Shown: one piece after another, positions 1 through 54,933 of the stretch
How the letters are laid out: every line of letters starts with the position of its first letter
How positions within the stretch are numbered: position 1 is the first letter of the stretch
Source: Promethearchaeati archaeon
Lineage (GTDB): Archaea; Asgardarchaeota; Heimdallarchaeia; Heimdallarchaeales; Heimdallarchaeaceae
DNA length: 56,439 nt
Reading direction: 5' to 3'
Assembly: GCA_013166775.1 (NCBI GenBank)
Contig: JABLTJ010000022.1
Span: 1 to 56,439 of the forward strand
Program-made: the position numbers and the translations under genes
The notes under the pieces: model-generated
Told to the model about the DNA's origin: nothing
Seen by the model: the letters and a program-made list of their open reading frames with translations, nothing else
Databases searched by the model: none

Positions 1-3000
1 GTCTTTATTACAGTTCAATATAATGATTATAGGGCAAACTACACTGATGAGTATGTTTCAGATGTTTTTGTTTTAGAAGTAAGCGCACCTAAAACGGTAA
101 TTCAAATTAATTCAGCAGATAATTCAATCTATACTTATCATACCGCATTATTCAATTTTGATTTCTTTGATACAAATCATTCAATAGATTTAACAGGGGC
201 TGTAGTTGATGTGTGGTTTAATGTTACGGATGTTTCTGCAATTGTAACTCCTAGCGGTAGTTCTTATCAGGTAGAAATTACAAGTAATAATCCTTACACT
301 ATTGGCATATCTGTCTACATAAATGTAACAAAAACCAACTATGAATCCATCAACAACTATTTGCTTGGTGAAATAAATGTAGTCATAATTCAAACGGAAA
401 TAGTATCCATTGATGTTCCTTCTGATATGTATGATGGTTACAATACTTCAGTAATAATCCTATTCAATGATACAGATAATGTTGAAACAATAGATGGAGC
501 TTATCTAGAGAGCATTGTAACAAATTCAACTAGTTTTGTAAACATCAGTATTGTTGAACTGGGAGGAGGTCAATATAATATCACTTTCATTAATTATGAT
601 ATAGCTGTTTTCTGGTTGGACATGAATATTACGCTTGCAAAACCTGGGTATTACAATGCAGTAATACGAATAACCATAAAGATCATTGTTGTCCAAACGG
701 ATTCCGAGCTCTTGGATAGTAGTTCTGTTTCTATTTATTACGATACGGGTACAACATTCGATATTTTATATTGGGACAATATTTCCTTCGTGAATATCAC
801 CAATCCTCAAGTATTCTTCTCAGGCAATTTAACAGGTGTAGTTACTCCTAGTTATAGTTTCTTGGATAATATTACCACAATAACGATTCTCACTATAACT
901 GACTTGGGATATTATGAGCTGAACATAACTATTGTTAAACCAGGATTCGAACCTCAGATAATATCTGTTTATATTCTTGTTCAAGAAAGGCAAACTTCAG
1001 TAGATTCCGATGAGACGGATATAACATTCTATGCTGATTTGACGGATAATATACTGTTAAATTATACGGATGAATTGGATGAAGTATCAATCCTAGTTGC
1101 TACTGTAGATATTGATTTTGCAGCTGATAATAGTACATTAATTGTCCAAGATTATTTCAATATTAATTTAGTCGAAGTTGGATCATTATATGAAATTACA
1201 TTTGATCCAATTGAGAATATGGCAACTGGTTATGTGTTTATATTTAATATGACAATCAGTAAATATGGATATGTAACAAACTTCATTATAATTACTGTAA
1301 CAATCAATATTCACCCTACAGATATTGATCCCTCTTCAACTTCCCAAGATACTGTTTATACTGATGAAGATGGTGAATTCACAATAATTTATGAAACAAT
1401 TGAAGATGATTTCATCAGTGGTGCTGAAATGAGTTACATTCTCATTAATGGTACATCTGCTGAAATAGAGGATGTTGTTCTAACTCAAATAATCGATACA
1501 TATGTAATCTATGTTTACATTAGCAGTAGTATAATTCCTGAACTGAGTTTTGAAATCGAGCTTACTTTTTATAAATATGGTTTCGAAAATCAAACTTGGA
1601 TTATTCTAATAACTGTAGCTATTCATCCAACAGATATTGATCCCTCTTCAACTTCCCAAGATACTGTTTATACAGATGAAGATGGTGAATTCACAATAAT
1701 TTATGAAACAATTGAAGATGATTTCATCAGTGGTGCTGAAATGAGTTATTCCCTTCTTAATGGTACATCTGCTGAAATAGAGGACGTTGTTCTAACTCAA
1801 ATAATCGATTCATATGTAATCTATGTTTACATTAGCAGTAGTATAGTTCCCGAACTGAGTTTTGAAATCGAGCTTACTTTTTATAAACATGGTTTCGAAA
1901 ATCAAACTTGGATTATTCTAATAACTGTAGCTATTCATCTAACAGATATTGATCCCTCTTCAGATAATCAAGATACTATTTATACTGATGGAGTTGGCAA
2001 TTATACAATAATCTATGAAACAATTGAGGATGATTTCATCAGTGGTGCTGAAATGAGTTATATTCTCATTAATGGTACTTCAATGGATATAGAGAATGTT
2101 GCTCTTTCTCAAATACTTGGCTCATATGTTGTTGATATTTATATTAACAGTAGTATAGTTCCTGTTACGAGTTTTCTAATCGAGCTTACATTCTACAAGC
2201 ATGGTTATGAGAACCAAACTTGGATAATAACAATAAATATCATTAACCACCCAACAGATATTGATCCCTCTTCAGATAATCAAGATACAATAAATACTGA
2301 AGAAGATGGTGAATTCACAATAGTCTACGAGACTGAAGAAGGAGATTTCATCAGTGGTGCTGAACTTAGTTACATTCTCATTAATGGTACTTCAATGGAT
2401 ATAGAGAATGTTGCTCTTTCTCAAATACTTGATTCATATATTGTTTCTGTTTATATTAACAGTAGTATAGTTCCTGTTACGAGTTTTCTAATCGAGCTTA
2501 CATTCTACAAGCATGGTTTTGAGAACCAAACTTGGATAATAACATTAACTGTAGCGATTCATCCCACTTCAATTGATCCCTCAGAAGATCAAGATACTAT
2601 TTATGCTGATGAAGATGGCGAATTCACAATAGTCTACGAGACTGAAGAAGGAGATTTCATCACAGGAGCTGAAATGGAATACAACATTATTAACGGTACT
2701 TCAGCTGAAATTTTATTAATCACTTATTCTCCAATTACTGATTATTACCTAATTTTCATCAACTTTGATGAATCTCTAGTAGCTGGGAAAAACTTCTCTA
2801 TTGAGCTTATCTTCTACAAACATGGTTTTCAGAATCAAACATGCATCATTAACATCAACGTTCTTCCTAAAATTACTTATGATATTATTTTGGAAATTGT
2901 AGGTGAATTAAGGCAATTAAACACAATTCAATTCCAAATAACATTAAGTAATTTTAGTATCGATTTATTAACAGCTTTATCATTCGAAAATATTAAGTTC

Positions 3001-4062
3001 TATACTAATCCAAATGGAGATTTTGCTTTGATAACATATATATTCACATTTGCAAATGGAACTACGAAAGAATATCAAATTCAAGCAGAATTTCAACAGA
3101 TTTCAGAAGGTGTTTTTGTAGCACTAACTAGTGAAATAACGATACCATGGCGTGTGACTGAAGTTTCGTATATTGCAACATACACTCCCACTAGTCAATC
3201 AGTGATATCAATTGAATCAACAAGTATTTCAGAAAGCTTGACTCAAAATCCCAAAATCTTGGAACTTCTATCATACATGTTTACTGAATTTACACCTTAC
3301 ATGGCTGCTGCCTTAGCAGTTATTGCAGCAGTATTCATAAGCTTGACAATATTCTTTGGAGTTATAAGACCTAGAAAACAAAAAAGAAGTGCTAAGAAAC
3401 GTGGTTATCTTGATAAAATTTCTAAGATACTTGCAAGTGTTATATCTATGAGGAAAGTCATTGTTGTTCATAATGAAACTGGATTACCTGTTTACGAATG
3501 GGATCTCGGTGGAGAAATTTCTGTTGATTCTTCATTAGTTTCTGGTTTCTTACAAGCTGTTTCAGGTATGGGTGGTGAGATAAGTGGAGGAGAAGTTGGT
3601 GCAGTAAGAAAAATTGATTATGGTCAATTCTGCGTTTCTAGTGCAGGAACAGATTGTATTACAACCTATCTATTTAGTACTGGTGATATTTCAGCTGATG
3701 TTGAAATAGGTTTAGCAAGCTTTGTTGAATGGTTTGAAAAGAAATTCCATGATCTTGTTAGCACAACATGGGATGGTAAAACTGAAGAATTTCTATCAAA
3801 TGAAAGATCAATAATTGATACATTATCTGAAAATCTATTTGTTTGGACATTACATCCACTTTCTGTTAATACAGTAAAAGAAAAAGATGTCCTAAAATTG
3901 GGCACATTTAGTCAGAAATTATACAAATTCATTAAAGATTATAATGAAGTATCAATAAGTGTAGCTCTAGAATTCTTCGGTAAACAACCTATGGAAGAGA
4001 CACTTTCAAAAATATTTGAAATGGTTGATGCTAATATTCTACTGCGTAAGAGATTAAGGTAA
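1..4062 (+). CDS. Large single-pass cell-surface protein, 5'-truncated: extracellular beta-rich (Ig-like) repeats, TM helix, cytoplasmic longin/roadblock-like domain and probable C-terminal winged helix
   Basis: Frame 1 is open from base 1 with no stop before the listed 211 start, so the true start lies outside the window. It has many N-x-S/T sequons, 104-aa repeats, a hydrophobic helix (YMAAALAVIAAVFISLTIFFGVI, ~3298-3366) followed by a basic patch (RPRKQKRSAKKR), then VIVVHNETGLPVY...DSSLVSGFLQAV...VRKIDYG. Confidence 0.8.
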   Translation, partial: VFITVQYNDYRANYTDEYVSDVFVLEVSAPKTVIQINSADNSIYTYHTALFNFDFFDTNHSIDLTGAVVDVWFNVTDVSAIVTPSGSSYQVEITSNNPYTIGISVYINVTKTNYESINNYLLGEINVVIIQTEIVSIDVPSDMYDGYNTSVIILFNDTDNVETIDGAYLESIVTNSTSFVNISIVELGGGQYNITFINYDIAVFWLDMNITLAKPGYYNAVIRITIKIIVVQTDSELLDSSSVSIYYDTGTTFDILYWDNISFVNITNPQVFFSGNLTGVVTPSYSFLDNITTITILTITDLGYYELNITIVKPGFEPQIISVYILVQERQTSVDSDETDITFYADLTDNILLNYTDELDEVSILVATVDIDFAADNSTLIVQDYFNINLVEVGSLYEITFDPIENMATGYVFIFNMTISKYGYVTNFIIITVTINIHPTDIDPSSTSQDTVYTDEDGEFTIIYETIEDDFISGAEMSYILINGTSAEIEDVVLTQIIDTYVIYVYISSSIIPELSFEIELTFYKYGFENQTWIILITVAIHPTDIDPSSTSQDTVYTDEDGEFTIIYETIEDDFISGAEMSYSLLNGTSAEIEDVVLTQIIDSYVIYVYISSSIVPELSFEIELTFYKHGFENQTWIILITVAIHLTDIDPSSDNQDTIYTDGVGNYTIIYETIEDDFISGAEMSYILINGTSMDIENVALSQILGSYVVDIYINSSIVPVTSFLIELTFYKHGYENQTWIITINIINHPTDIDPSSDNQDTINTEEDGEFTIVYETEEGDFISGAELSYILINGTSMDIENVALSQILDSYIVSVYINSSIVPVTSFLIELTFYKHGFENQTWIITLTVAIHPTSIDPSEDQDTIYADEDGEFTIVYETEEGDFITGAEMEYNIINGTSAEILLITYSPITDYYLIFINFDESLVAGKNFSIELIFYKHGFQNQTCIININVLPKITYDIILEIVGELRQLNTIQFQITLSNFSIDLLTALSFENIKFYTNPNGDFALITYIFTFANGTTKEYQIQAEFQQISEGVFVALTSEITIPWRVTEVSYIATYTPTSQSVISIESTSISESLTQNPKILELLSYMFTEFTPYMAAALAVIAAVFISLTIFFGVIRPRKQKRSAKKRGYLDKISKILASVISMRKVIVVHNETGLPVYEWDLGGEISVDSSLVSGFLQAVSGMGGEISGGEVGAVRKIDYGQFCVSSAGTDCITTYLFSTGDISADVEIGLASFVEWFEKKFHDLVSTTWDGKTEEFLSNERSIIDTLSENLFVWTLHPLSVNTVKEKDVLKLGTFSQKLYKFIKDYNEVSISVALEFFGKQPMEETLSKIFEMVDANILLRKRLR
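1309..2865 (+). repeat. Five tandem intragenic repeats of ~312 bp (104 aa)
   Basis: Units start at 1309, 1621, 1933, 2245 and 2557 (IHPTDIDPSS...FYKHGFENQTW), exactly 312 bp apart. Units 1 and 2 are near-identical in DNA. Confidence 0.95.
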
Positions 4063-4102
4063 ACCAGTTACTTTAAAAACCAATAATTTCCTTTTTTTTG
4101 TT

Positions 4103-4828
4103 ATGAATGATACATCTAGCTGGAATAACTATTGTATACTATTCGATATGGATGGTGTTCTTATTAGTCTCAAAGCTAGATGGATTGATCCTGTAGAACA
4201 AATTATTGAGAAAATCCATCCAGATTTTGATAGAAACAAAATTGCTCAACATGCTCCTTCTCTTATGCTTATCCATGGTGGTCGAAGTGCTAATATCATG
4301 TTTAAAGGTATTCTGGAAATCTGCAAAATAGGAGGTCTCTCAAAATTTCAAACATTTAGAGTACTAGTAAGATTGTTTTTTTCAATCCTCTCAAAAAAGA
4401 AATGGCCAATAGTTCCATTTGAAGGGACATTTGTAACTCTCAAACAACTAAGAGAGATGGATTTCAATTTAGCATTGATTACTTCTGCCTCCAGATATAC
4501 TCTCAGAAGAGTAAAAAGGGAATATCCTTCAATCTATGGTGCGTTTGATTGCATAGTAACAAGAAATGATGTTCGTTTTACAAAACCATCACCTGAACAA
4601 ATTCTTATTGCCCTTGAAAAACTAAGCATTCAAAATGAAAATTCTGTTGTCGTTGGTGATTTCATGAGTGACATACAGGCAGGGAAAAATGTTGGAACAA
4701 AAACTATAGGCGTACTAAGTGAATTTACTGAAATAAGTCAATCTTATATAGAAAGTACAAATCCCGATTTGATCGTATCAAGTATAACTGAAATTCCTAC
4801 TCTATTACCTAAGGTCTTTTCAGTCTAA
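4103..4828 (+). CDS. HAD-superfamily hydrolase (phosphoglycolate phosphatase-like)
   Basis: Motif I FDMDGVL, motif II ITS, motif III KPSP, motif IV VGDFMSDIQAG. Confidence 0.9.
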   Translation: MNDTSSWNNYCILFDMDGVLISLKARWIDPVEQIIEKIHPDFDRNKIAQHAPSLMLIHGGRSANIMFKGILEICKIGGLSKFQTFRVLVRLFFSILSKKKWPIVPFEGTFVTLKQLREMDFNLALITSASRYTLRRVKREYPSIYGAFDCIVTRNDVRFTKPSPEQILIALEKLSIQNENSVVVGDFMSDIQAGKNVGTKTIGVLSEFTEISQSYIESTNPDLIVSSITEIPTLLPKVFSV

Positions 4829-4891
4829 TATATAATGAAAAAAGAAAAAGATTAAGAAGGAAAACTTCAAAAAGATATTAGAAAGGATGAA

Positions 4892-5371
4892 TTGACTAAG
4901 ATGAAAAAACAGTTTAGATTTCCCGAAAAATGCCTTTACCAATCCACATACGTTTGGCTAGAGGAAATGGGTAGAGGTGTCATCCGTTTGGGAATTACGG
5001 ACTACGCTCAATTCTCACTTGATGATATTATCTCCATTACACTTCCTGAGAAGGGGATCTATATCGAAAAAGATGAAGAGCTTATATCAATTGACTCTAT
5101 AGAAGAAACAATTGTCATCACAGCTCCCATTAGTGGTACCATAGAAGAAATTAATGAAGAACTAAGACAATCACCTGAACTTCTTAATGAAAGTCCATAT
5201 AAAGAGGGATGGATTCTTGAATTGGAAATAGGAGATAACGATGATCTTGATTTATTAATGGATGTGGATGAGGTCCTAGACGCATATCAAGAAGAAATAG
5301 AAGATGAGGAATTAGAAGACGAAGATTTCAAAGAAAACATTGGTGATTACGACCTCGAAAGTGAATTTTAA
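4892..5371 (+). CDS. gcvH: Glycine cleavage system H-protein-like, lacking the lipoyl lysine; acidic C-tail (start may be ATG 4901)
   Basis: LGITDYAQFSLDDI, APISGTIEEINEEL..PELLNESPY.EGW are GcvH hallmarks. The canonical ESVKA motif reads DSIEE. Confidence 0.85.
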   Translation: MTKMKKQFRFPEKCLYQSTYVWLEEMGRGVIRLGITDYAQFSLDDIISITLPEKGIYIEKDEELISIDSIEETIVITAPISGTIEEINEELRQSPELLNESPYKEGWILELEIGDNDDLDLLMDVDEVLDAYQEEIEDEELEDEDFKENIGDYDLESEF

Positions 5372-5406
5372 GGTTAATAGTCACTTTTTTAGATTATATT
5401 TATGCT

Positions 5407-5421
5407 CGAAAGTTTTAAATA
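5407..5421 (+). promoter_or_regulatory. Putative archaeal BRE + TATA box upstream of pheS
   Basis: CGAAA followed by TTTAAATA in the intergenic region, ~140 nt before the pheS start. Confidence 0.5.
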
Positions 5422-5558
5422 AGTTACAAAATACTTTCTAATACCGTAAATTGGGGCGTATCGTGACTTGGAATTTCATTAACTCTTTCTAAAGTGCCCG
5501 ACAACAACAACTTAAAGGTAATTAGTTTTTTATATCAATATTTTAGGATTGTTAGACA

Positions 5559-7049
5559 ATGAGTAGTGTAAAGAAGAAAATTTCGTTAGCACCAGAAGTA
5601 GTAAAACTCTATAAAGAAATTAGCTTAAAGGACGAAATATCGATAGATGAATTGAAGAACATCACAAAGCTAGATCATGGGAAACTAGAATATCTACTTG
5701 GAGCTCTAACTTCAAATAATCTTGTTGAAAGGATTATAGAAGTTAAGAAAAAAGTTCTCTTAACTGAAGCAGGTGAAATTGCAGCTGCAAATCAATTAGT
5801 AGAACGCAGGATTCTTTCTGCTTTAAAAGAAAATCAACCAATTAATTCTTCTGATCTTTCAAAAATATTAGATTGTGATAATAGGGAATTGAATGCTGGG
5901 ATTGGTTATCTGAAAAAACAGGGAATGATTGACATTGTTCAAGGACAGATATCTTTTTCTCAAAAAGAGGTAGAAGTTAGCACGGATATACAGGAAATTT
6001 TAGTTGAACTGTCCAAAGGAAACGAAGTAGATATTCAGAATTATGAAAAAACATTGCTTCAAAGAAGTTTAATAACAATTGAAGATGAGAAAAAAATAAT
6101 CGTTAAAACAATTGTCAAGTTTGAAGAAATGAAAAAGAATATAGTTGAAACATCTGATATCAGTAGATTAACTCCAGAAATGATTAGAAATGGCACCTGG
6201 AGAAAAACAAAATTGCGAGAATATAATCTAGATGTTTCTCCACCTGAATTCTTTACTGGCAGAAAACAACCTTATGCTAGATTTTTGGATGAAGTTAAAC
6301 AGAAATTAGTTGCCTATGGATTTCAAGAAATGCGAGGTCCTATTGTGGAGCTAGAATACTGGAATTTTGACGCTCTATTTCAGGCTCAAGATCATCCAGC
6401 GAGAGAATGGTCAGATGTATATAGAATTACTAATCCTAGTAAAGGAAAATTACCAAAAGAAAATCATGTTAAATTTGTTCAGAAGGCTCATGAAGACGGC
6501 TATGATACTGGAAGCAAAGGATGGAGATACAAGTGGGATCCGATGAAGAGTGCCCGTTTGGTTCTCAGAGCTCAAGGAACTTCTGTGAGTGCAAGAACTC
6601 TTGTAGATTTACCAATCCCTTCAAAGTATTTTAGTATCTCTCGATGCTTTAGACCTGATACAACAGATGCTACACATCTATCAGAATTTAACCAAGCTGA
6701 AGGAATTGTTTGTGATCCTTCTATTACATTTCGAGATTTATTAGGTATTCTCGAAACTTTTGCAATTGAAATATCTGAAGCACCAAATTATACATTCAAA
6801 CCAGATTACTACCCATTCACAGAACCATCAGTGGAATTAAGTGTTAAGGATCCTAAAATTGGACATATAGAATATGGTGGAGCTGGAATATTTCGACCTG
6901 AAGTAACAAGGCCATTTGGCATTGATGCTCCAGTAATTGCTTGGGGTTTAGGTGTGGACAGATTATTCATGGTCAAATATGGAATAACCGACATTAGGGA
7001 ACTTTATAGCTATAAGTTAGATTGGCTGCGATCAGCTAGGATGTCGTGA
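5559..7049 (+). CDS. pheS: Phenylalanine--tRNA ligase alpha subunit (archaeal/eukaryotic long type)
   Basis: WNFDALFQAQDHPAR, FRPDTTDATHLSEFNQAEG, YYPFTEPSVE, GAGIFRPEV, AWGLGVDRL. Confidence 0.98.
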   Translation: MSSVKKKISLAPEVVKLYKEISLKDEISIDELKNITKLDHGKLEYLLGALTSNNLVERIIEVKKKVLLTEAGEIAAANQLVERRILSALKENQPINSSDLSKILDCDNRELNAGIGYLKKQGMIDIVQGQISFSQKEVEVSTDIQEILVELSKGNEVDIQNYEKTLLQRSLITIEDEKKIIVKTIVKFEEMKKNIVETSDISRLTPEMIRNGTWRKTKLREYNLDVSPPEFFTGRKQPYARFLDEVKQKLVAYGFQEMRGPIVELEYWNFDALFQAQDHPAREWSDVYRITNPSKGKLPKENHVKFVQKAHEDGYDTGSKGWRYKWDPMKSARLVLRAQGTSVSARTLVDLPIPSKYFSISRCFRPDTTDATHLSEFNQAEGIVCDPSITFRDLLGILETFAIEISEAPNYTFKPDYYPFTEPSVELSVKDPKIGHIEYGGAGIFRPEVTRPFGIDAPVIAWGLGVDRLFMVKYGITDIRELYSYKLDWLRSARMS

Positions 7050-7058
7050 GGTGAAATA

Positions 7059-8753
7059 ATGGTATCTATAAAAGCAAGTTATACAAAAATTCAGGAATTC
7101 CTAGGAAAAGAATTATCACTGGAAGAACTAGAAGAGCTGCTATCATTCGCAAAAACAGAGATTGATGATTACGTCAAAGAGGAAGACATGCTTGTCCTTG
7201 ATATTAAGACGAGTAATCGTCCTGATCTTTGGTGTGCTGAAGGAATGATTAGAGAAATAAAAGGAATTTTGGATATGGAAAAAGGCATTCCTTCTTATGA
7301 AGTGAAAGAAAGTGGTTTCAGTGTCAAAGTGGATTCATCATTAGCTTCATCTCGACCTTATATCGCTTGTGCAATAGCAAAGAAAATTAATTTAGATGAT
7401 TTCTATATTAAGCAACTAATGCAGCATTCCGAGAAAATAGATAATTCTTATGGTAGAAAGAGAAAACGGTCATCTATTGGAATGTATAATCTTTCAATGA
7501 TTCAAAGCCCCGTACTTTATCAAACAGCTCAGAAATCTCATAAATTCACTCCTCTTGGGTATGAAAAAGAAATGACCTTAGATAAAATTCTTAATGAGCA
7601 TGAAAAAGGGCAGGAATTTGGTCAAATAGTCAAAGATTATGGTATCTATCCCATCTTATTGTCTGCAGATGGAATGACACTATCTTTACCTCCTGTGATT
7701 AACAGCAATGATGTAGGAAGAATTACTGAAGATACAACTGAATGTTTAATCGAAGTTACTGGCACCAATTTCGAGACAGTTAATGTAGTTCTGAATATCT
7801 TATGTCAAACAATGGCTGATCATGGAGCAGATATCTATAGTGTTGTTATCGAATATCCACCTGAAATTCATAAAGAGCAAGTTATTACTCCTATACTAGA
7901 ACTTGAAAGTATCATCATAGAACTAGACATAATTGAAAAGTATTTAGATGTAAAAATCAATTCCACAAAAGCAAAGGAACTAATGCAGAAAAGAAGATTT
8001 GAATGTGAGGAATTAGAAGGTAATAAAATCAAAGTAATGATTCCCCCCTATCGAAAAGATATACTACATTGGGTAGATATAGCAGAAGAGATAGTAATAG
8101 CGTTAGATTATAATAAAATAGGTCCAACAAAATGGAAAGTACTAACAACAGGAGGTCTCCTTCCAGAAACAGAAAGCGAAAATCTTGTACGAGAAATTTT
8201 AGTGGGTGCTTATGGCATCGAATTGGTTACAAATATACTTACAGATCCTAGTATTCTGACTAGCAATGTTAACCTCGACAAGCAAGAACTGATAAAAATT
8301 GAAAATCCAGTCAGTCAAACATATAGTGTTTTAAGAAATCAGCTCTTTCCCAATTTGGTAAATGTAATTTCAAAAAATACTCACGAATCCTATCCTCAGA
8401 TTATTTTTGAGGTTGGTGAAGTAGTAAGAATGGATAAGAATGATGTCTGGACTCAAACCAATGCTGCTTTTTGTATTGCAGATGCAGATGCTAGTTTTGA
8501 AGATGCTCATAAAAGACTTCATCATCTTATGAAACTGTTAAACACTGAATATAAGATTGAAAGCACAACTCACCCTTCCTTTACAGATGGACGATGTGGA
8601 ATAATAAGTATCAAAGATATCCAATGCGGAATTATTGGAGAAATTAATCCACTTATACTTGAGAAGAATCAAATTTGGGTACCTTTAGTTTGTTTTGAAG
8701 TAGAATTACCTAGCATTCCAACTCTTAACTGTAAAACAAAGAAGACTTACTAG
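7059..8753 (+). CDS. pheT: Phenylalanine--tRNA ligase beta subunit
   Basis: NRPDLWCAEG, SLPPVINS, YRKDILHWVDIAEE, IFEVGEV; directly downstream of pheS. Confidence 0.97.
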   Translation: MVSIKASYTKIQEFLGKELSLEELEELLSFAKTEIDDYVKEEDMLVLDIKTSNRPDLWCAEGMIREIKGILDMEKGIPSYEVKESGFSVKVDSSLASSRPYIACAIAKKINLDDFYIKQLMQHSEKIDNSYGRKRKRSSIGMYNLSMIQSPVLYQTAQKSHKFTPLGYEKEMTLDKILNEHEKGQEFGQIVKDYGIYPILLSADGMTLSLPPVINSNDVGRITEDTTECLIEVTGTNFETVNVVLNILCQTMADHGADIYSVVIEYPPEIHKEQVITPILELESIIIELDIIEKYLDVKINSTKAKELMQKRRFECEELEGNKIKVMIPPYRKDILHWVDIAEEIVIALDYNKIGPTKWKVLTTGGLLPETESENLVREILVGAYGIELVTNILTDPSILTSNVNLDKQELIKIENPVSQTYSVLRNQLFPNLVNVISKNTHESYPQIIFEVGEVVRMDKNDVWTQTNAAFCIADADASFEDAHKRLHHLMKLLNTEYKIESTTHPSFTDGRCGIISIKDIQCGIIGEINPLILEKNQIWVPLVCFEVELPSIPTLNCKTKKTY

Positions 8754-53153: not shown

Positions 53154-54062
53154 ATGAGTTCTAGCATATCAGACTACAAAGATATACTATACTCAATACA
53201 TATTTTGGAACAAGGAGTCAGTATTCACAGCGAAAAATTCGATGAATTTCTGAATATCGATGACATATTGTTGTTTGGTTTCATGTCAGCTTTACATAGT
53301 TATACATACTCTGTTGGTCAAGAAGAAGTAAAATCCATAGATTTTGGTACATGCAAATTTATCTTCGAACCTCTCAACAAGGATAAACTTTTAGTAATAA
53401 TTGCGAAAAAAGCTATCCCGTTTGAGGAGGAAATTGAACTTGTTCAAAGCCTAAAGATAAGATTTGAAGTTATATCTGCTTCTGGATCCATTAAACGGGG
53501 TAGTTCATTACTAGATGTTAAAGAACGAATGATACCATTTGAATTGATTTTAGAAATGAGAAGGAAGGGAGAAAAGGAAGAAGCAAGTGAAAAAGCTTCA
53601 AAAGTCGATCTTTCAATCCCTGCTATTCCTGAGATAAAATCAGAAGAATTCTATTTTGAATGTCTTATGAATGAAAAAGTGTTAACAGAAAATAAAATCA
53701 TGTATATTAAAAGAACTCTAAGCAATTTTTTTCTTGGATATAAAAAACTAATCCTGGGATTCTTTGTCATGGGAAAAGAAGAACAACTAACATCTTTTGC
53801 TTATAGTAGAAAAGAAATCAATGAAATCTTCCCTCTTATCCAACAAATCCTTAACGACAAAACCATAACAGAAAAAGAACTCTCAGAGGAAATGAATTTT
53901 TATAAGAAAATAGAATTTGAAAACCAAAAGATTTGGGTATTAACTCACGCTTCAAATAAATATGCTGCGAGAGTTATATTTTTCAGTATGTCAAAGGCAG
54001 AACTTGAATCTATGGCTCCTCATTTAAGTAGAATTATGTATTTTGTCAATAAATTAATCTAG
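53154..54062 (+). CDS. Longin/roadblock-like domain protein
   Basis: SIHILEQGVSIH...DDILLFGFMSAL...VKSIDFG..KFIF...LLVIIA, the same pattern as the cytoplasmic domain of the 1-4062 protein. Confidence 0.65.
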   Translation: MSSSISDYKDILYSIHILEQGVSIHSEKFDEFLNIDDILLFGFMSALHSYTYSVGQEEVKSIDFGTCKFIFEPLNKDKLLVIIAKKAIPFEEEIELVQSLKIRFEVISASGSIKRGSSLLDVKERMIPFELILEMRRKGEKEEASEKASKVDLSIPAIPEIKSEEFYFECLMNEKVLTENKIMYIKRTLSNFFLGYKKLILGFFVMGKEEQLTSFAYSRKEINEIFPLIQQILNDKTITEKELSEEMNFYKKIEFENQKIWVLTHASNKYAARVIFFSMSKAELESMAPHLSRIMYFVNKLI

Positions 54063-54132
54063 AAATGTTTTAAATACCTTAATTCAAAGATAATATTGAA
54101 ATACTATAAGTTCTACAACATACTGTAGAGTA

Positions 54133-54522
54133 ATGGTGGGTAATATGAGCCTATCTGGACAACAAATAGAAGAAATGTTACGTGAATTTGAATCGAACAC
54201 TGAAGGTGTTCTGGGCTGTTCAATAATTTATGCGAAAGATGCGCTGCTTCTAGCAGAATCTTCTCAACAATTTGAACGATTGGTTATACAGTGGTTGAGT
54301 GAAAAAATGCTATCACTTGCCAAAGAATCTCTGCAACAATTGATGAAAGAATATACTCTCATGAGTGTAACGATAGAAGAAAAGGATCATTTTGTTTATT
54401 TGAGACCAATTGGGGAAGAATATTACGCTGTTATAATCACAACTAAAGAAGAGAATAGAGGTTTATTAGAACACAACATTAAACGGTTATTACAAAGACT
54501 AACACCAATGATGGTAACCTAA
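54133..54522 (+). CDS. Roadblock/LC7 domain protein
   Basis: IEEMLREFESNTEGVLGCSII..DALLLAES...VTIEEKDHFVYLRPIGEEYYAVIIT...NRGLL. Confidence 0.85.
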   Translation: MVGNMSLSGQQIEEMLREFESNTEGVLGCSIIYAKDALLLAESSQQFERLVIQWLSEKMLSLAKESLQQLMKEYTLMSVTIEEKDHFVYLRPIGEEYYAVIITTKEENRGLLEHNIKRLLQRLTPMMVT

Positions 54523-54546
54523 AAAACAAATCAGAGGTAGGAGATT

Positions 54547-54933
54547 GTGGATGTCACGACACTAAAAATTCTTGCTAGAATGGCAAAAGGAGAAGAAGGG
54601 CAAAATGTAAGGTTTCATTTTGTTTCTTCCGACTCCACGAATGTTCTTTGCTCATGTTCTACATTGGAAGAATTATACGAATGCGTTATGAAGACTGATC
54701 CGAAGATTCTGATTAAACATGTATGTTCCTGTGAAGAAGTAGATAAGATTGAAGGAACCAGAGATCTTGCATTCTATATTCATTATGTATTTGGTGATGC
54801 AGAGCTCTCTATGAAAATCTATAACCTAGCAGAACGTTTAGCAGATGAACCTGATAAACTGAAACTAGAACTTGGTAATCTATTATTCACAAGATTACTA
54901 AATTTCAGTGAAATAGCACTCATACCAGATTAA
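54547..54933 (+). CDS. Hypothetical protein, DUF5752-like
   Basis: FHF...TLEELYE......I..H...DLAFYIHYVFGDAELS.KI resembles DUF5752. Confidence 0.5.
   Translation: MDVTTLKILARMAKGEEGQNVRFHFVSSDSTNVLCSCSTLEELYECVMKTDPKILIKHVCSCEEVDKIEGTRDLAFYIHYVFGDAELSMKIYNLAERLADEPDKLKLELGNLLFTRLLNFSEIALIPD

What the first reader, a model, noticed from the sequence alone, without database searches (positions are those of the whole stretch)
1..4062. Receptor-like architecture: large repeat ectodomain + single TM + cytoplasmic longin-like domain + winged helix
Seen: more than 1090 aa of acidic, sequon-rich beta repeats, one TM helix (~3298-3366), a basic stop-transfer patch, then a ~230-aa cytoplasmic part. 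Its first half matches the longin/roadblock-type pattern also seen at 53154, and its end looks like a winged helix. S-layer and adhesin proteins normally end right after the TM. Inference: a type I transmembrane adhesion receptor coupling surface contact to longin/small-GTPase signalling.
Basis: partly seen in the sequence, partly recalled or inferred. Interest (0 to 1): 0.78.

Follow-up and report, generated by a model that had tools for sequence, protein, structure and literature searches.

The report
Asgard surface glycoprotein with longin tail
This is most of a giant sugar-coated surface protein of a Heimdall-group (Asgard) archaeon whose highly conserved intracellular tail is a longin domain plus a winged helix, the fold eukaryotes use to dock small GTPases, so it may link the cell surface physically to GTPase-type machinery, although no binding partner has been shown.

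Summary
ORF 1-4062 encodes 1,353 residues. It has about 1,098 aa of acidic (net -140), sequon-enriched ectodomain with five 104-aa repeats, one TM helix, a basic stop-transfer patch and a 231-aa tail.

With a 61-sequence alignment the tail folds confidently (pLDDT 87) into a longin domain (Z 11-12 to sedlin, Sec22b, Fuzzy, VAMP7) plus a winged helix. Pfam and NCBIfam do not match it.

The gene is cut by a contig end. Its start, with a signal peptide, lies at the end of contig C6, and about 730 aa are unassembled.

It is a positional ortholog (phosphoesterase, this gene, HAD, GcvH, PheS) in 29 mostly Heimdallarchaeota genomes. The tail is as conserved as PheRS. The ectodomain is swapped and its repeat number varies from 0 to 12.

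The module occurs in 188 of 201 sampled genomes of the phylum. Most copies sit behind a TM helix; some are soluble and some are fused to Rab-like GTPases.

GTPase coupling is therefore plausible but inferred. No GTPase gene is adjacent, the FLCN-type arginine finger is missing, and the winged helix looks non-DNA-binding.

The scan found this family before on other DNA. It is a new variant of a known kind.

The parts
1..1311 (+). Visible N-terminal part of the ectodomain (aa 1-437): beta-rich, acidic, sequon-rich domains with weak internal repetition. Residue 1 corresponds to about residue 829 of full-length orthologs.
1312..2865 (+). Five tandem 104-aa repeats (aa 438-955). They are probably Ig-like or prealbumin-like beta-sandwiches, each with conserved NGTS and NQTW sequons. 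The first two are near-identical.
   Evidence: The fold assignment is a lead only: sub-threshold Pfam TTR-52 and CarboxypepD_reg hits and Atlas feature hits to Big_3_5/MG4 clusters at 0.81-0.86.
2866..3294 (+). Membrane-proximal ectodomain (aa 956-1098).
   Evidence: It is only 34% identical to the closest relative, L005.
3295..3363 (+). Single transmembrane helix (aa 1099-1121).
   Evidence: The only Kyte-Doolittle peak, 2.1-2.7 over 19 aa. A TM helix lies at the same place in about 90 family representatives.
3364..3447 (+). Basic stop-transfer patch (RPRKQKRSAKKR) and juxtamembrane helix (aa 1122-1149).
   Evidence: (helix at model residues 2-15). Soluble paralogs start at this helix.
3448..3852 (+). 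Cytoplasmic longin domain (aa 1150-1284). It carries the motifs VVHxETGLPVY (b1-b2), DSSLVSGFLQAV (a1) and WF...W.G.
   Evidence: AF2 model. VIA-align Z 10.4-11.7 to longins over model residues 14-150. Foldseek E about 2e-4. Conservation.
3859..4059 (+). C-terminal winged helix (aa 1287-1353) with an acidic third helix. The stop codon is at 4060-4062.
   Evidence: AF2 model. VIA-align: MecI 1okr_A Z 8.4, 58 aa, rmsd 2.1; TigE and MibB Z 8.5-8.6. Charge analysis.

Best explanation
Bases 1-4062 encode the C-terminal 1,353 residues of a type I surface glycoprotein of about 2,180 residues from a Heimdallarchaeial (Asgard) archaeon. The protein has a signal peptide, a conserved head of about 750 aa (here unassembled), variable beta-sandwich domains and repeats, one TM helix and a cytoplasmic longin plus winged-helix tail.

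Shown:
- the architecture, topology and fold;
- that the gene is a positionally conserved ortholog;
- that its tail evolves as slowly as a tRNA synthetase while its ectodomain is exchanged and resized.

Inferred mechanism:
- The ectodomain is part of the non-crystalline glycoprotein coat of the cell and is under diversifying pressure.
- The tail is a membrane-anchored docking platform. Its longin domain would pair with another longin or roadblock domain. Candidates are itself, the soluble longin-wH paralogs, or the C-terminal domain of Arf/Rag/Rab-like GTPases. Alternatively it binds a small GTPase directly.
- This would tether GTPase-type machinery under the surface protein, much as Ragulator anchors Rag GTPases.
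- The acidic winged helix would be a second protein-binding surface, not a DNA reader.

Whether information flows outside-in (signalling) or inside-out (positioning or sorting of the coat protein) is open.
For: Topology:
- The N-terminus of the same gene lies at the end of contig C6. It follows the same metallophosphoesterase gene as in orthologs and has a classic signal peptide. Seven full-length orthologs have it too.
- Sequon enrichment (34 against 13.6 +/- 3.2) occurs only outside the membrane, and a basic patch lies inside.

Fold:
- AF2 model with pLDDT 87.3.
- The top 26 VIA rows are all longins, Z 10.4-11.7 with 120-134 residues aligned. Roadblock domains score Z 9.7-10.4 with about 100 aligned and stop at model residue 120.
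- The winged helix scores Z 8.4-8.6.

Selection:
- Against L005 the tail is 90% identical, PheS 95%, and the proximal ectodomain 34%.
- Against L013 the tail is 70%, PheS 65%, and the ectodomain 60-68%.
- Repeat number ranges from 0 to 12 among orthologs.

Family:
- 391 representatives match the module.
- In 67 of 153 representatives the module is C-terminal, just behind a TM helix. In 23 more it is followed by a further C-terminal extension.
- It is found in 188 of 201 genomes of the phylum sample.

GTPase link:
- P0083 and its neighbour gene are Ras/Rab GTPase plus full-module fusions.
- The tail profile matches the C-terminal domains of two Arf/Rag-like GTPases of this genome at E 1e-6 and 8e-6.
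- Other fusion partners are PCI/DDRGK-type winged-helix arrays and BBS2/7-like propellers, which are protein-scaffold parts.
- Soluble copies lie next to membrane forms on contig C102.

Winged helix not DNA-binding: helix 3 has net charge -3 here and a mean of -1.2 over 61 sequences. The longin domain has net -13.
Against: - No GTPase, roadblock or longin gene is adjacent. Neighbours in 29 loci are a metallophosphoesterase, HAD, GcvH and PheS. The paralog cluster on C102 is flanked by acyltransferases and transporters.
- The GTPase fusions come from one contig of unknown organism and are about 20% identical to this tail.
- Longin domains also have roles unrelated to GTPases, for example in SNAREs and adaptor small subunits, which are among the best structural matches.
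- No Pfam or NCBIfam family covers the tail, so nothing is transferable by sequence.
- No ligand or adhesion function of the ectodomain is known.
Confidence: 0.5

Rival explanations
1. The tail is only a structural organiser of the surface coat. It holds or clusters the glycoprotein, through self-association or a link to the cytoskeleton or membrane, without any small GTPase. The longin fold is used as a generic dimerisation or packing module.
For: The neighbourhood is housekeeping, with no GTPase genes. The best structural matches include SNARE longins and adaptor sigma/mu subunits that are not GTPase regulators. Strong purifying selection on the tail fits any essential interaction.
Against: The same module is fused to Rab-like GTPases and is related to the C-terminal domains of Arf/Rag-like GTPases in this genome. 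Soluble free copies of the module exist, which a pure anchor would not need.
Confidence: 0.25
2. The tail is a catalytic GAP of the folliculin/SMCR8/NPRL2 type. The surface protein would then directly switch off a Rag- or Arf-like GTPase.
For: The domain order, longin followed by winged helix, is that of NPR2/NPR3 (PMC3521125). A G-x-P motif with an invariant Pro at the start of strand 2 resembles the GP motif that PMC12290439 finds only in GAP longins and some Heimdallarchaeial longins. VIA row 8fw5_C (GATOR1 complex) spans both domains at Z 8.3, but with rmsd 9.8.
Against: The b3-b4 connection is where NPRL2 and FLCN carry the arginine finger; that position is from my own knowledge, not tested by superposition. 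Here it is a tight two-residue turn (GQ, YD, YG, HG or YS) with no conserved Arg. The motif is GLP, not GP. No Pfam NPR2, NPR3 or Folliculin hit was found in 61 members.
Confidence: 0.1
3. The protein is a membrane-tethered transcription factor. The C-terminal winged helix binds DNA, either at the membrane (ToxR-like) or after proteolytic release of the tail (Notch/SREBP-like).
For: A genuine winged-helix fold sits at the C-terminus, and its best match is the repressor MecI. Free soluble copies of the module exist.
Against: The putative recognition helix is acidic and hydrophobic, with no conserved basic residues: net -3 here and a mean of -1.2 over 61 sequences. The adjoining longin domain has net -13. 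Fusion partners are protein-scaffold winged helices of PCI/DDRGK type.
Confidence: 0.05

Closest known systems
Eukaryotic and Asgard longin domains (sedlin/TRAPPC2, Sec22b, VAMP7, Ykt6, Fuzzy/Mon1 LD1, AP sigma/mu, and the Lokiarchaeal Roadblock-Longin protein 8yqg)
   Same: They share the b-b-a-b-b-b-a-a fold, with Z 10.2-11.7 and 120-135 residues aligned at rmsd 2.7-3.6. The conserved small-residue a1 motif is also shared.
   Different: No sequence family matches. Here the domain follows a TM helix of a type I giant glycoprotein and is followed by a winged helix. Longin SNAREs are tail-anchored with an N-terminal longin domain.
NPRL2/NPRL3 (Npr2/Npr3) of GATOR1/SEACIT
   Same: The domain order is longin followed by winged helix(es) (PMC3521125). 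Asgard 'NPRL2-like longin' families are known to be abundant (bioRxiv 10.1101/2020.10.19.343400).
   Different: This tail has one winged helix, not three. It has no arginine finger and no Pfam NPR2 or NPR3 match, and it is membrane-anchored. The structural match across both domains is weak (Z 8.3, rmsd 9.8).
Ragulator/LAMTOR and MglB-type roadblock platforms
   Same: The core fold is related (Z 9.7-10.4). The concept is also shared: a membrane-anchored platform that docks GTPases through their roadblock or longin domains.
   Different: Roadblock alignments stop at model residue 120, and the C-terminal helices here are of longin type. Ragulator is lipid-anchored, not a transmembrane glycoprotein. 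Binding is untested.
GTPase-longin fusion proteins of Asgard archaea (Tran et al. 2024, PMC10933270)
   Same: The same longin-wH module is fused to a Rab-like GTPase in P0083 and its neighbour gene. Arf/Rag-like GTPase fusions in this genome match the tail profile.
   Different: Those proteins are soluble. In this protein the module is separated from any GTPase and attached to a surface protein.
Archaeal surface (S-layer-type) glycoproteins with a C-terminal TM anchor
   Same: It has a signal peptide, a large acidic N-glycosylated ectodomain of beta-sandwich repeats and a single C-terminal TM helix with a basic patch.
   Different: Those proteins end a few residues after the anchor. This one continues for 231 conserved, folded cytoplasmic residues. 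Asgard cells have no ordered S-layer (PMC9834061).

Membership tests
Longin domain (fold level) | Five-stranded antiparallel sheet in the order b1-b2-a1-b3-b4-b5-a2-a3, with a1 on one face and a2/a3 on the other | tested here: met
   AF2 secondary structure. All of the top 26 VIA rows are longins, with Z 10.4-11.7 spanning model residues 14-150.
Longin domain (sequence families in Pfam: Longin, Sybindin, Sedlin_N, Fuz_longin_1 and others) | Match to a curated profile above its gathering score | tested here: not met
   None of the 61 tails gave any longin-family hit at E <= 1. Only a paralogous TPR-longin protein gives Fuz_longin_1 at E 0.003, below the cut-off.
Roadblock/LC7 (MglB type) | a-b-b-a-b-b-b(-a) topology with an N-terminal helix packed on the sheet; Pfam Robl_LC7 | tested here: inconclusive
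   Roadblock structures align at Z 9.7-10.4 but over only about 100 residues, to model residue 120. A juxtamembrane N-terminal helix exists. There is no Robl_LC7 hit.
FLCN/SMCR8/NPRL2-type GAP longins | GP motif at the end of the b1-b2 loop | tested here: inconclusive
   The tail has G27-L28-P29, with Pro invariant at the start of b2. The motif is defined in PMC12290439. G-x-P is similar but not identical.
FLCN/SMCR8/NPRL2-type GAP longins | Conserved catalytic arginine finger | tested here: not met
   No conserved Arg lies in the two-residue b3-b4 turn. The expected position is taken from my own knowledge of NPRL2 R78 and FLCN R164, not from a superposition.
NPRL2/NPRL3 architecture | Longin domain followed by C-terminal winged helix domains; NPR2/NPR3 profile match | tested here: inconclusive
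   The domain order is the same, but with one winged helix. There is no Pfam NPR2 or NPR3 hit. 8fw5_C gives Z 8.3 with rmsd 9.8.
Winged helix (fold) | Three helices plus a beta hairpin wing | tested here: met
   Model residues 153-219. MecI Z 8.4, rmsd 2.1, 58 aa; TigE and MibB Z 8.5-8.6.
DNA-binding wHTH regulators | Basic or polar recognition helix | tested here: not met
   Helix 3 has net charge -3 here and a mean of -1.2 across 61 sequences.
Type I single-pass membrane glycoprotein | Cleavable signal peptide, extracellular N-glycosylation sequons, one TM helix, positive-inside flank | tested here: met
   Signal peptide on the C6 fragment and in orthologs. Sequons 34 against 13.6 expected outside and 1 inside. 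No dedicated topology predictor was available.

The most novel reading that the evidence does not exclude
These proteins are true archaeal outside-in receptors. Engagement or clustering of the variable ectodomain changes the pairing state of the longin-wH tail. The tail then recruits or regulates Rab/Arf/Rag-like GTPases at the plasma membrane. This would be a prokaryotic forerunner of Ragulator-type GTPase anchoring and of cargo/receptor-to-coat coupling in eukaryotic membrane traffic, and it is present across the whole Asgard phylum.
Probability: 0.2. Interest if true: 0.85.

Novelty: new variant of a known kind. Interest (0 to 1): 0.64.

Why it matters
Asgard archaea encode many longin and roadblock proteins and small GTPases. 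What these connect to in a cell without proven endomembrane traffic is an open question. Here the longin fold is welded to the cytoplasmic end of large, fast-evolving surface glycoproteins, in 188 of 201 genomes of a sample of the phylum.

That gives a concrete, testable place where GTPase-type machinery could meet the cell surface. It also supplies matched candidate partners: soluble paralogs and GTPase-longin fusions. In addition, it identifies a likely major component of the non-S-layer surface coat seen by cryo-ET.

I found no description of this architecture in the papers searched.

Tried and rejected
- Single-sequence AF2 of the TM helix plus tail failed (pLDDT 36).
- An HMM of five tails against PDB sequences gave only chance-level hits (PEX1, E 0.06).
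- Pfam and NCBIfam gave nothing for the tail.
It was repeated with the 12-sequence subfamily.
- Homodimer prediction of the tail gave no verdict: score 0.37 against a mark of 0.42, with controls at 0.00. This is not evidence either way.
- No RNA holder was listed among public runs, so expression is untested.
- Laying Logan contigs did not bridge the C6-C56 gap. Contigs are fragmented over bases 1-2650.
- FLCN, NPRL2 and SMCR8 chains did not appear among the 50 rows shown by either VIA search, apart from 8fw5_C. Absence from a list is not exclusion.
- C-terminal extensions of 10 longer members gave only sub-threshold Pfam hits. Ten 330-450-aa members had no Pfam domain N-terminal of the module.
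- The neighbour of P0036 is not a soluble paralog. The neighbourhood of P0096 is housekeeping.
The C102 paralog cluster has no GTPase within 4 kb.
Full report
**What is there**

Frame +1 is open from base 1 to the stop at 4060-4062 and gives 1,353 residues. The window is the entire contig C56 of a 115-contig, 3.85-Mb genome, so the ORF is truncated by a contig end and not by biology.

- Residues 1-1095 are strongly acidic (161 D+E against 21 K+R). They carry 34 N-x-S/T sequons, against 13.6 +/- 3.2 in 1000 shuffles (maximum 23).
- The last 231 residues carry one sequon, the chance level.
- Five tandem 104-aa repeats occupy aa 438-955.
- There is one hydrophobic peak, aa 1099-1121 (nt 3295-3363). 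It is followed by RPRKQKRSAKKR.

**The missing start**

Full-length orthologs align residue 1 of the window with their residue of about 829. The ortholog of the metallophosphoesterase that precedes the gene elsewhere lies at C6:28663-30183. It is followed, up to the end of contig C6, by 99 codons matching the ortholog N-termini.

This fragment begins with a typical signal peptide: a basic n-region, about 20 hydrophobic residues, then AQV-YS. Seven full-length orthologs of 1,666-1,976 aa begin the same way.

The last 35 bases or so of C6 are GC-rich, unlike this 31% GC genome, and contain the stop codon. I read them as assembly junk.

About 730 residues are unassembled, so the whole protein has roughly 2,180 residues. 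The missing part is the conserved 'head' also present in the paralogs on contig C102. In 17 of 29 related loci the gene is likewise cut at a contig end. Logan contigs of the source metagenome are fragmented across bases 1-2650. The repeats therefore break assemblies.

**The tail fold**

Alone, the tail did not fold. With 61 homologs it folds with pLDDT 87.3 and pTM 0.81. The elements in order are:

- a juxtamembrane helix;
- b1-b2-a1-b3-b4-b5-a2 plus further helices;
- a three-helix, hairpin winged helix.

Structure comparison gives the following.

- Foldseek finds longin and roadblock proteins at E of about 2e-4 to 2e-3.
- In VIA-align the first 26 entries of the re-ranked list are all longins: TRAPP sedlin/sybindin-type subunits, Sec22b, Fuzzy LD1, VAMP7, Ykt6, AP/COPI small subunits and a Lokiarchaeal longin. 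They score Z 10.4-11.7 with 115-134 residues aligned over model residues 14-150.
- Roadblocks (MK-D1 Roadblock3, MglB, LAMTOR) score Z 9.7-10.4 with about 100 residues aligned and end near residue 120.

The Z values are nearly tied, but the coverage favours the longin type. No longin subfamily stands out.

Residues 151-219 match winged helices: MecI at Z 8.4, rmsd 2.1; TigE and MibB at Z 8.5-8.6.

At sequence level nothing in Pfam or NCBIfam covers the tail. A profile comparison links it to the longin domain of a TPR-longin protein of this genome (probability 95.6%). That protein gives a sub-threshold Fuz_longin_1 hit. The link to the ORF at 53154 is only at motif level.

**Cytoplasmic or not**

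Four observations put the tail inside the cell:

- the signal peptide;
- sequons restricted to the N-terminal side of the TM helix;
- the positive-inside patch;
- paralogs that consist of the module alone, with no signal peptide.

**An orthologous, positionally fixed gene with a mosaic history**

A search of one genome per species found 29 loci, nearly all labelled Heimdallarchaeota. In them the gene lies in the order metallophosphoesterase, this gene, (HAD hydrolase), GcvH, PheS. This holds down to 46-48% tail identity in the two complete Ca. Heimdallarchaeum genomes.

The tail is about as conserved as PheRS alpha. The ectodomain does not follow species distance:

| Locus | Tail | PheS | Membrane-proximal 140 aa | Upstream domains |
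|---|---|---|---|---|
| L005 | 90% | 95% | 34% | 29-39% |
| L013, L015 | 70-71% | 65% (L013) | 60% | 62-68% |

The 104-aa repeat is present 0 to 12 times among orthologs. Co-occurring variants of the ectodomain part are visible in the source metagenome.

My inference is that ectodomain cassettes are exchanged and resized under diversifying pressure, as expected for an exposed coat protein, while the tail is under strong purifying selection.

**The wider family**

- A five-tail profile found 391 representatives at 50% clustering, 38 of them at E <= 1e-30.
- Of 153 proteins examined, 67 have the full module at the very C-terminus, within 70 residues after a TM helix. A further 23 have TM, module and a C-terminal extension. 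Eight are small and soluble with the full module. The rest include longin-only matches.
- In an even sample of the phylum the module was found in 188 of 201 genomes and in 85 of 85 high-quality ones. There are usually 2-15 matches per genome, many in open frames of 750-2,900 aa.
- The nearest ESM Atlas clusters are all Promethearchaeota.
- This genome has four membrane forms (the window gene, two on C102, one on C97) and three soluble forms.

**Link to GTPases**

This is the part of the reading that remains inference.

For it:
- P0083 is a Ras/Rab-type GTPase (Pfam Ras E 1e-49, intact G motifs) joined by a linker to the complete longin-wH module. The gene two positions away on the same contig has the same architecture.
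- In this genome the tail profile matches the C-terminal domains of two Arf/Rag-like GTPases (E 1e-6 and 8e-6). Such domains mediate dimerisation and Ragulator docking in Rag GTPases (established knowledge).
- Other fusion partners are PCI/DDRGK/UFL1-type winged-helix arrays and FG-GAP/BBS2/BBS7-like propellers.

Against it:
- No GTPase, longin or roadblock gene neighbours the gene in any of the 29 loci.
- The C102 paralog cluster is flanked by three Acyl_transf_3 genes and transporters.
- The GTPase fusions are distant relatives from one contig.

**What the tail probably is not**

The GAP longins FLCN, SMCR8 and NPRL2 share a GP motif before b2 and an arginine finger (PMC12290439). The tail has G-L-P with an invariant proline. 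Its b3-b4 connection, where I expect the finger from my own knowledge of NPRL2 and FLCN, is a two-residue turn without arginine.

NPR2/NPR3 do combine a longin domain with winged helices (PMC3521125), so the domain order has a eukaryotic parallel. Membership is not supported.

The third helix of the winged helix is acidic (net -3 here, mean -1.2 in 61 sequences) and the longin domain has net -13. A DNA-binding, membrane-tethered regulator is therefore unlikely.

**Comparison with the literature and with the scan**

Abundant Asgard longin and roadblock families, NPRL2-like longins and GTPase-longin fusions are published. So is the fact that Asgard cells carry an amorphous coat of complex surface proteins in place of an S-layer. 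I found no description of longin-tailed type I glycoproteins in three full-text searches.

The scan itself has met this family several times on other DNA: e1-4809572, e1-5449619, e1-4799556, and e1-5550751 for the C102 cluster. My results agree with the longin plus winged-helix readings and disagree with the 'Roadblock-type' label.

New in this report:
- the recovery of the N-terminus on contig C6;
- the fixed synteny;
- the discordance between ectodomain and tail;
- the phylum-wide census;
- the Rab-GTPase fusion.

**Verdict**

The architecture is real, conserved and confidently modelled. The functional reading, a membrane-anchored longin platform that couples a variable surface glycoprotein to GTPase-type machinery, is the best available (about 0.5). 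It rests on fold, domain fusions and conservation, not on any demonstrated interaction.

Noticed in passing
L034 (G000:C6:28000-30600) 2272-2601: The true 5' end of the window's gene, with its signal peptide, lies at the end of contig C6. The last 35 bases or so of that contig are GC-rich, unlike the 31% GC genome, and introduce a stop codon. This is probably an assembly or adapter artefact.
   Followed up: yes
L037 3311-4687 (+) and 5106-6428 (-): Two nearby genes on a Logan contig each encode a Ras/Rab-like GTPase fused to the complete longin-wH module. This is a natural 'Rosetta stone' for the module's partner class.
   Followed up: partly
L002 (G000:C102:42000-60000) 165-3901 (-): Three tandem Acyl_transf_3 (membrane acyltransferase) genes lie directly upstream of the cluster of two giant longin-tailed glycoproteins and two soluble tail copies. 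They may modify the glycans of these proteins.
   Followed up: no
L031 (Ca. Heimdallarchaeum endolithica) 3771-8363; G074:C1:1560289-1560924; L030 7152-8651: In one complete genome the orthologous tail is interrupted: there is one in-frame TGA, and the blast match stops at tail residue 127. In the other complete genome the syntenic gene has only about 500 aa. The gene may have decayed or been shortened in that genus.
   Followed up: no
window 53154-54933 (+): Three co-oriented small genes. The first (302 aa) has longin-like motifs. The second (129 aa) has a weak Robl_LC7 hit (E 0.014). The third (128 aa) is unassigned.
   Followed up: partly
P0125:1234-1643, P0093:448-675, P0095:712-912: C-terminal extensions that follow the module in some longer members give sub-threshold Pfam hits to Spatacsin_C (E 0.003-0.005, two proteins) and CCDC22_N (E 6e-4). 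All are below the curated cut-offs. It is curious because AP-5 sigma, the partner complex of spatacsin, is among the best structural matches of the longin domain.
   Followed up: no
P0087, P0063, P0131, P0085, P0117: Soluble relatives combine the module with PCI/DDRGK/UFL1-type winged-helix arrays and with FG-GAP/BBS2/BBS7-like beta-propellers. These are building blocks of eukaryotic coat and UFMylation complexes.
   Followed up: no
L008 (JBHLQZ010000048.1): A contig labelled Thorarchaeota carries the full Heimdallarchaeial synteny, with 79% tail identity and 75% PheS identity to the window. The bin label is probably wrong.
   Followed up: no
window 1-450 in runs X1 and X2: Contigs of the source metagenome carry 15-25 substitutions and a 3-base deletion in the ectodomain-coding part. 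Downstream of 2633 they show 0-1 differences. This suggests co-existing ectodomain alleles in the population.
   Followed up: partly
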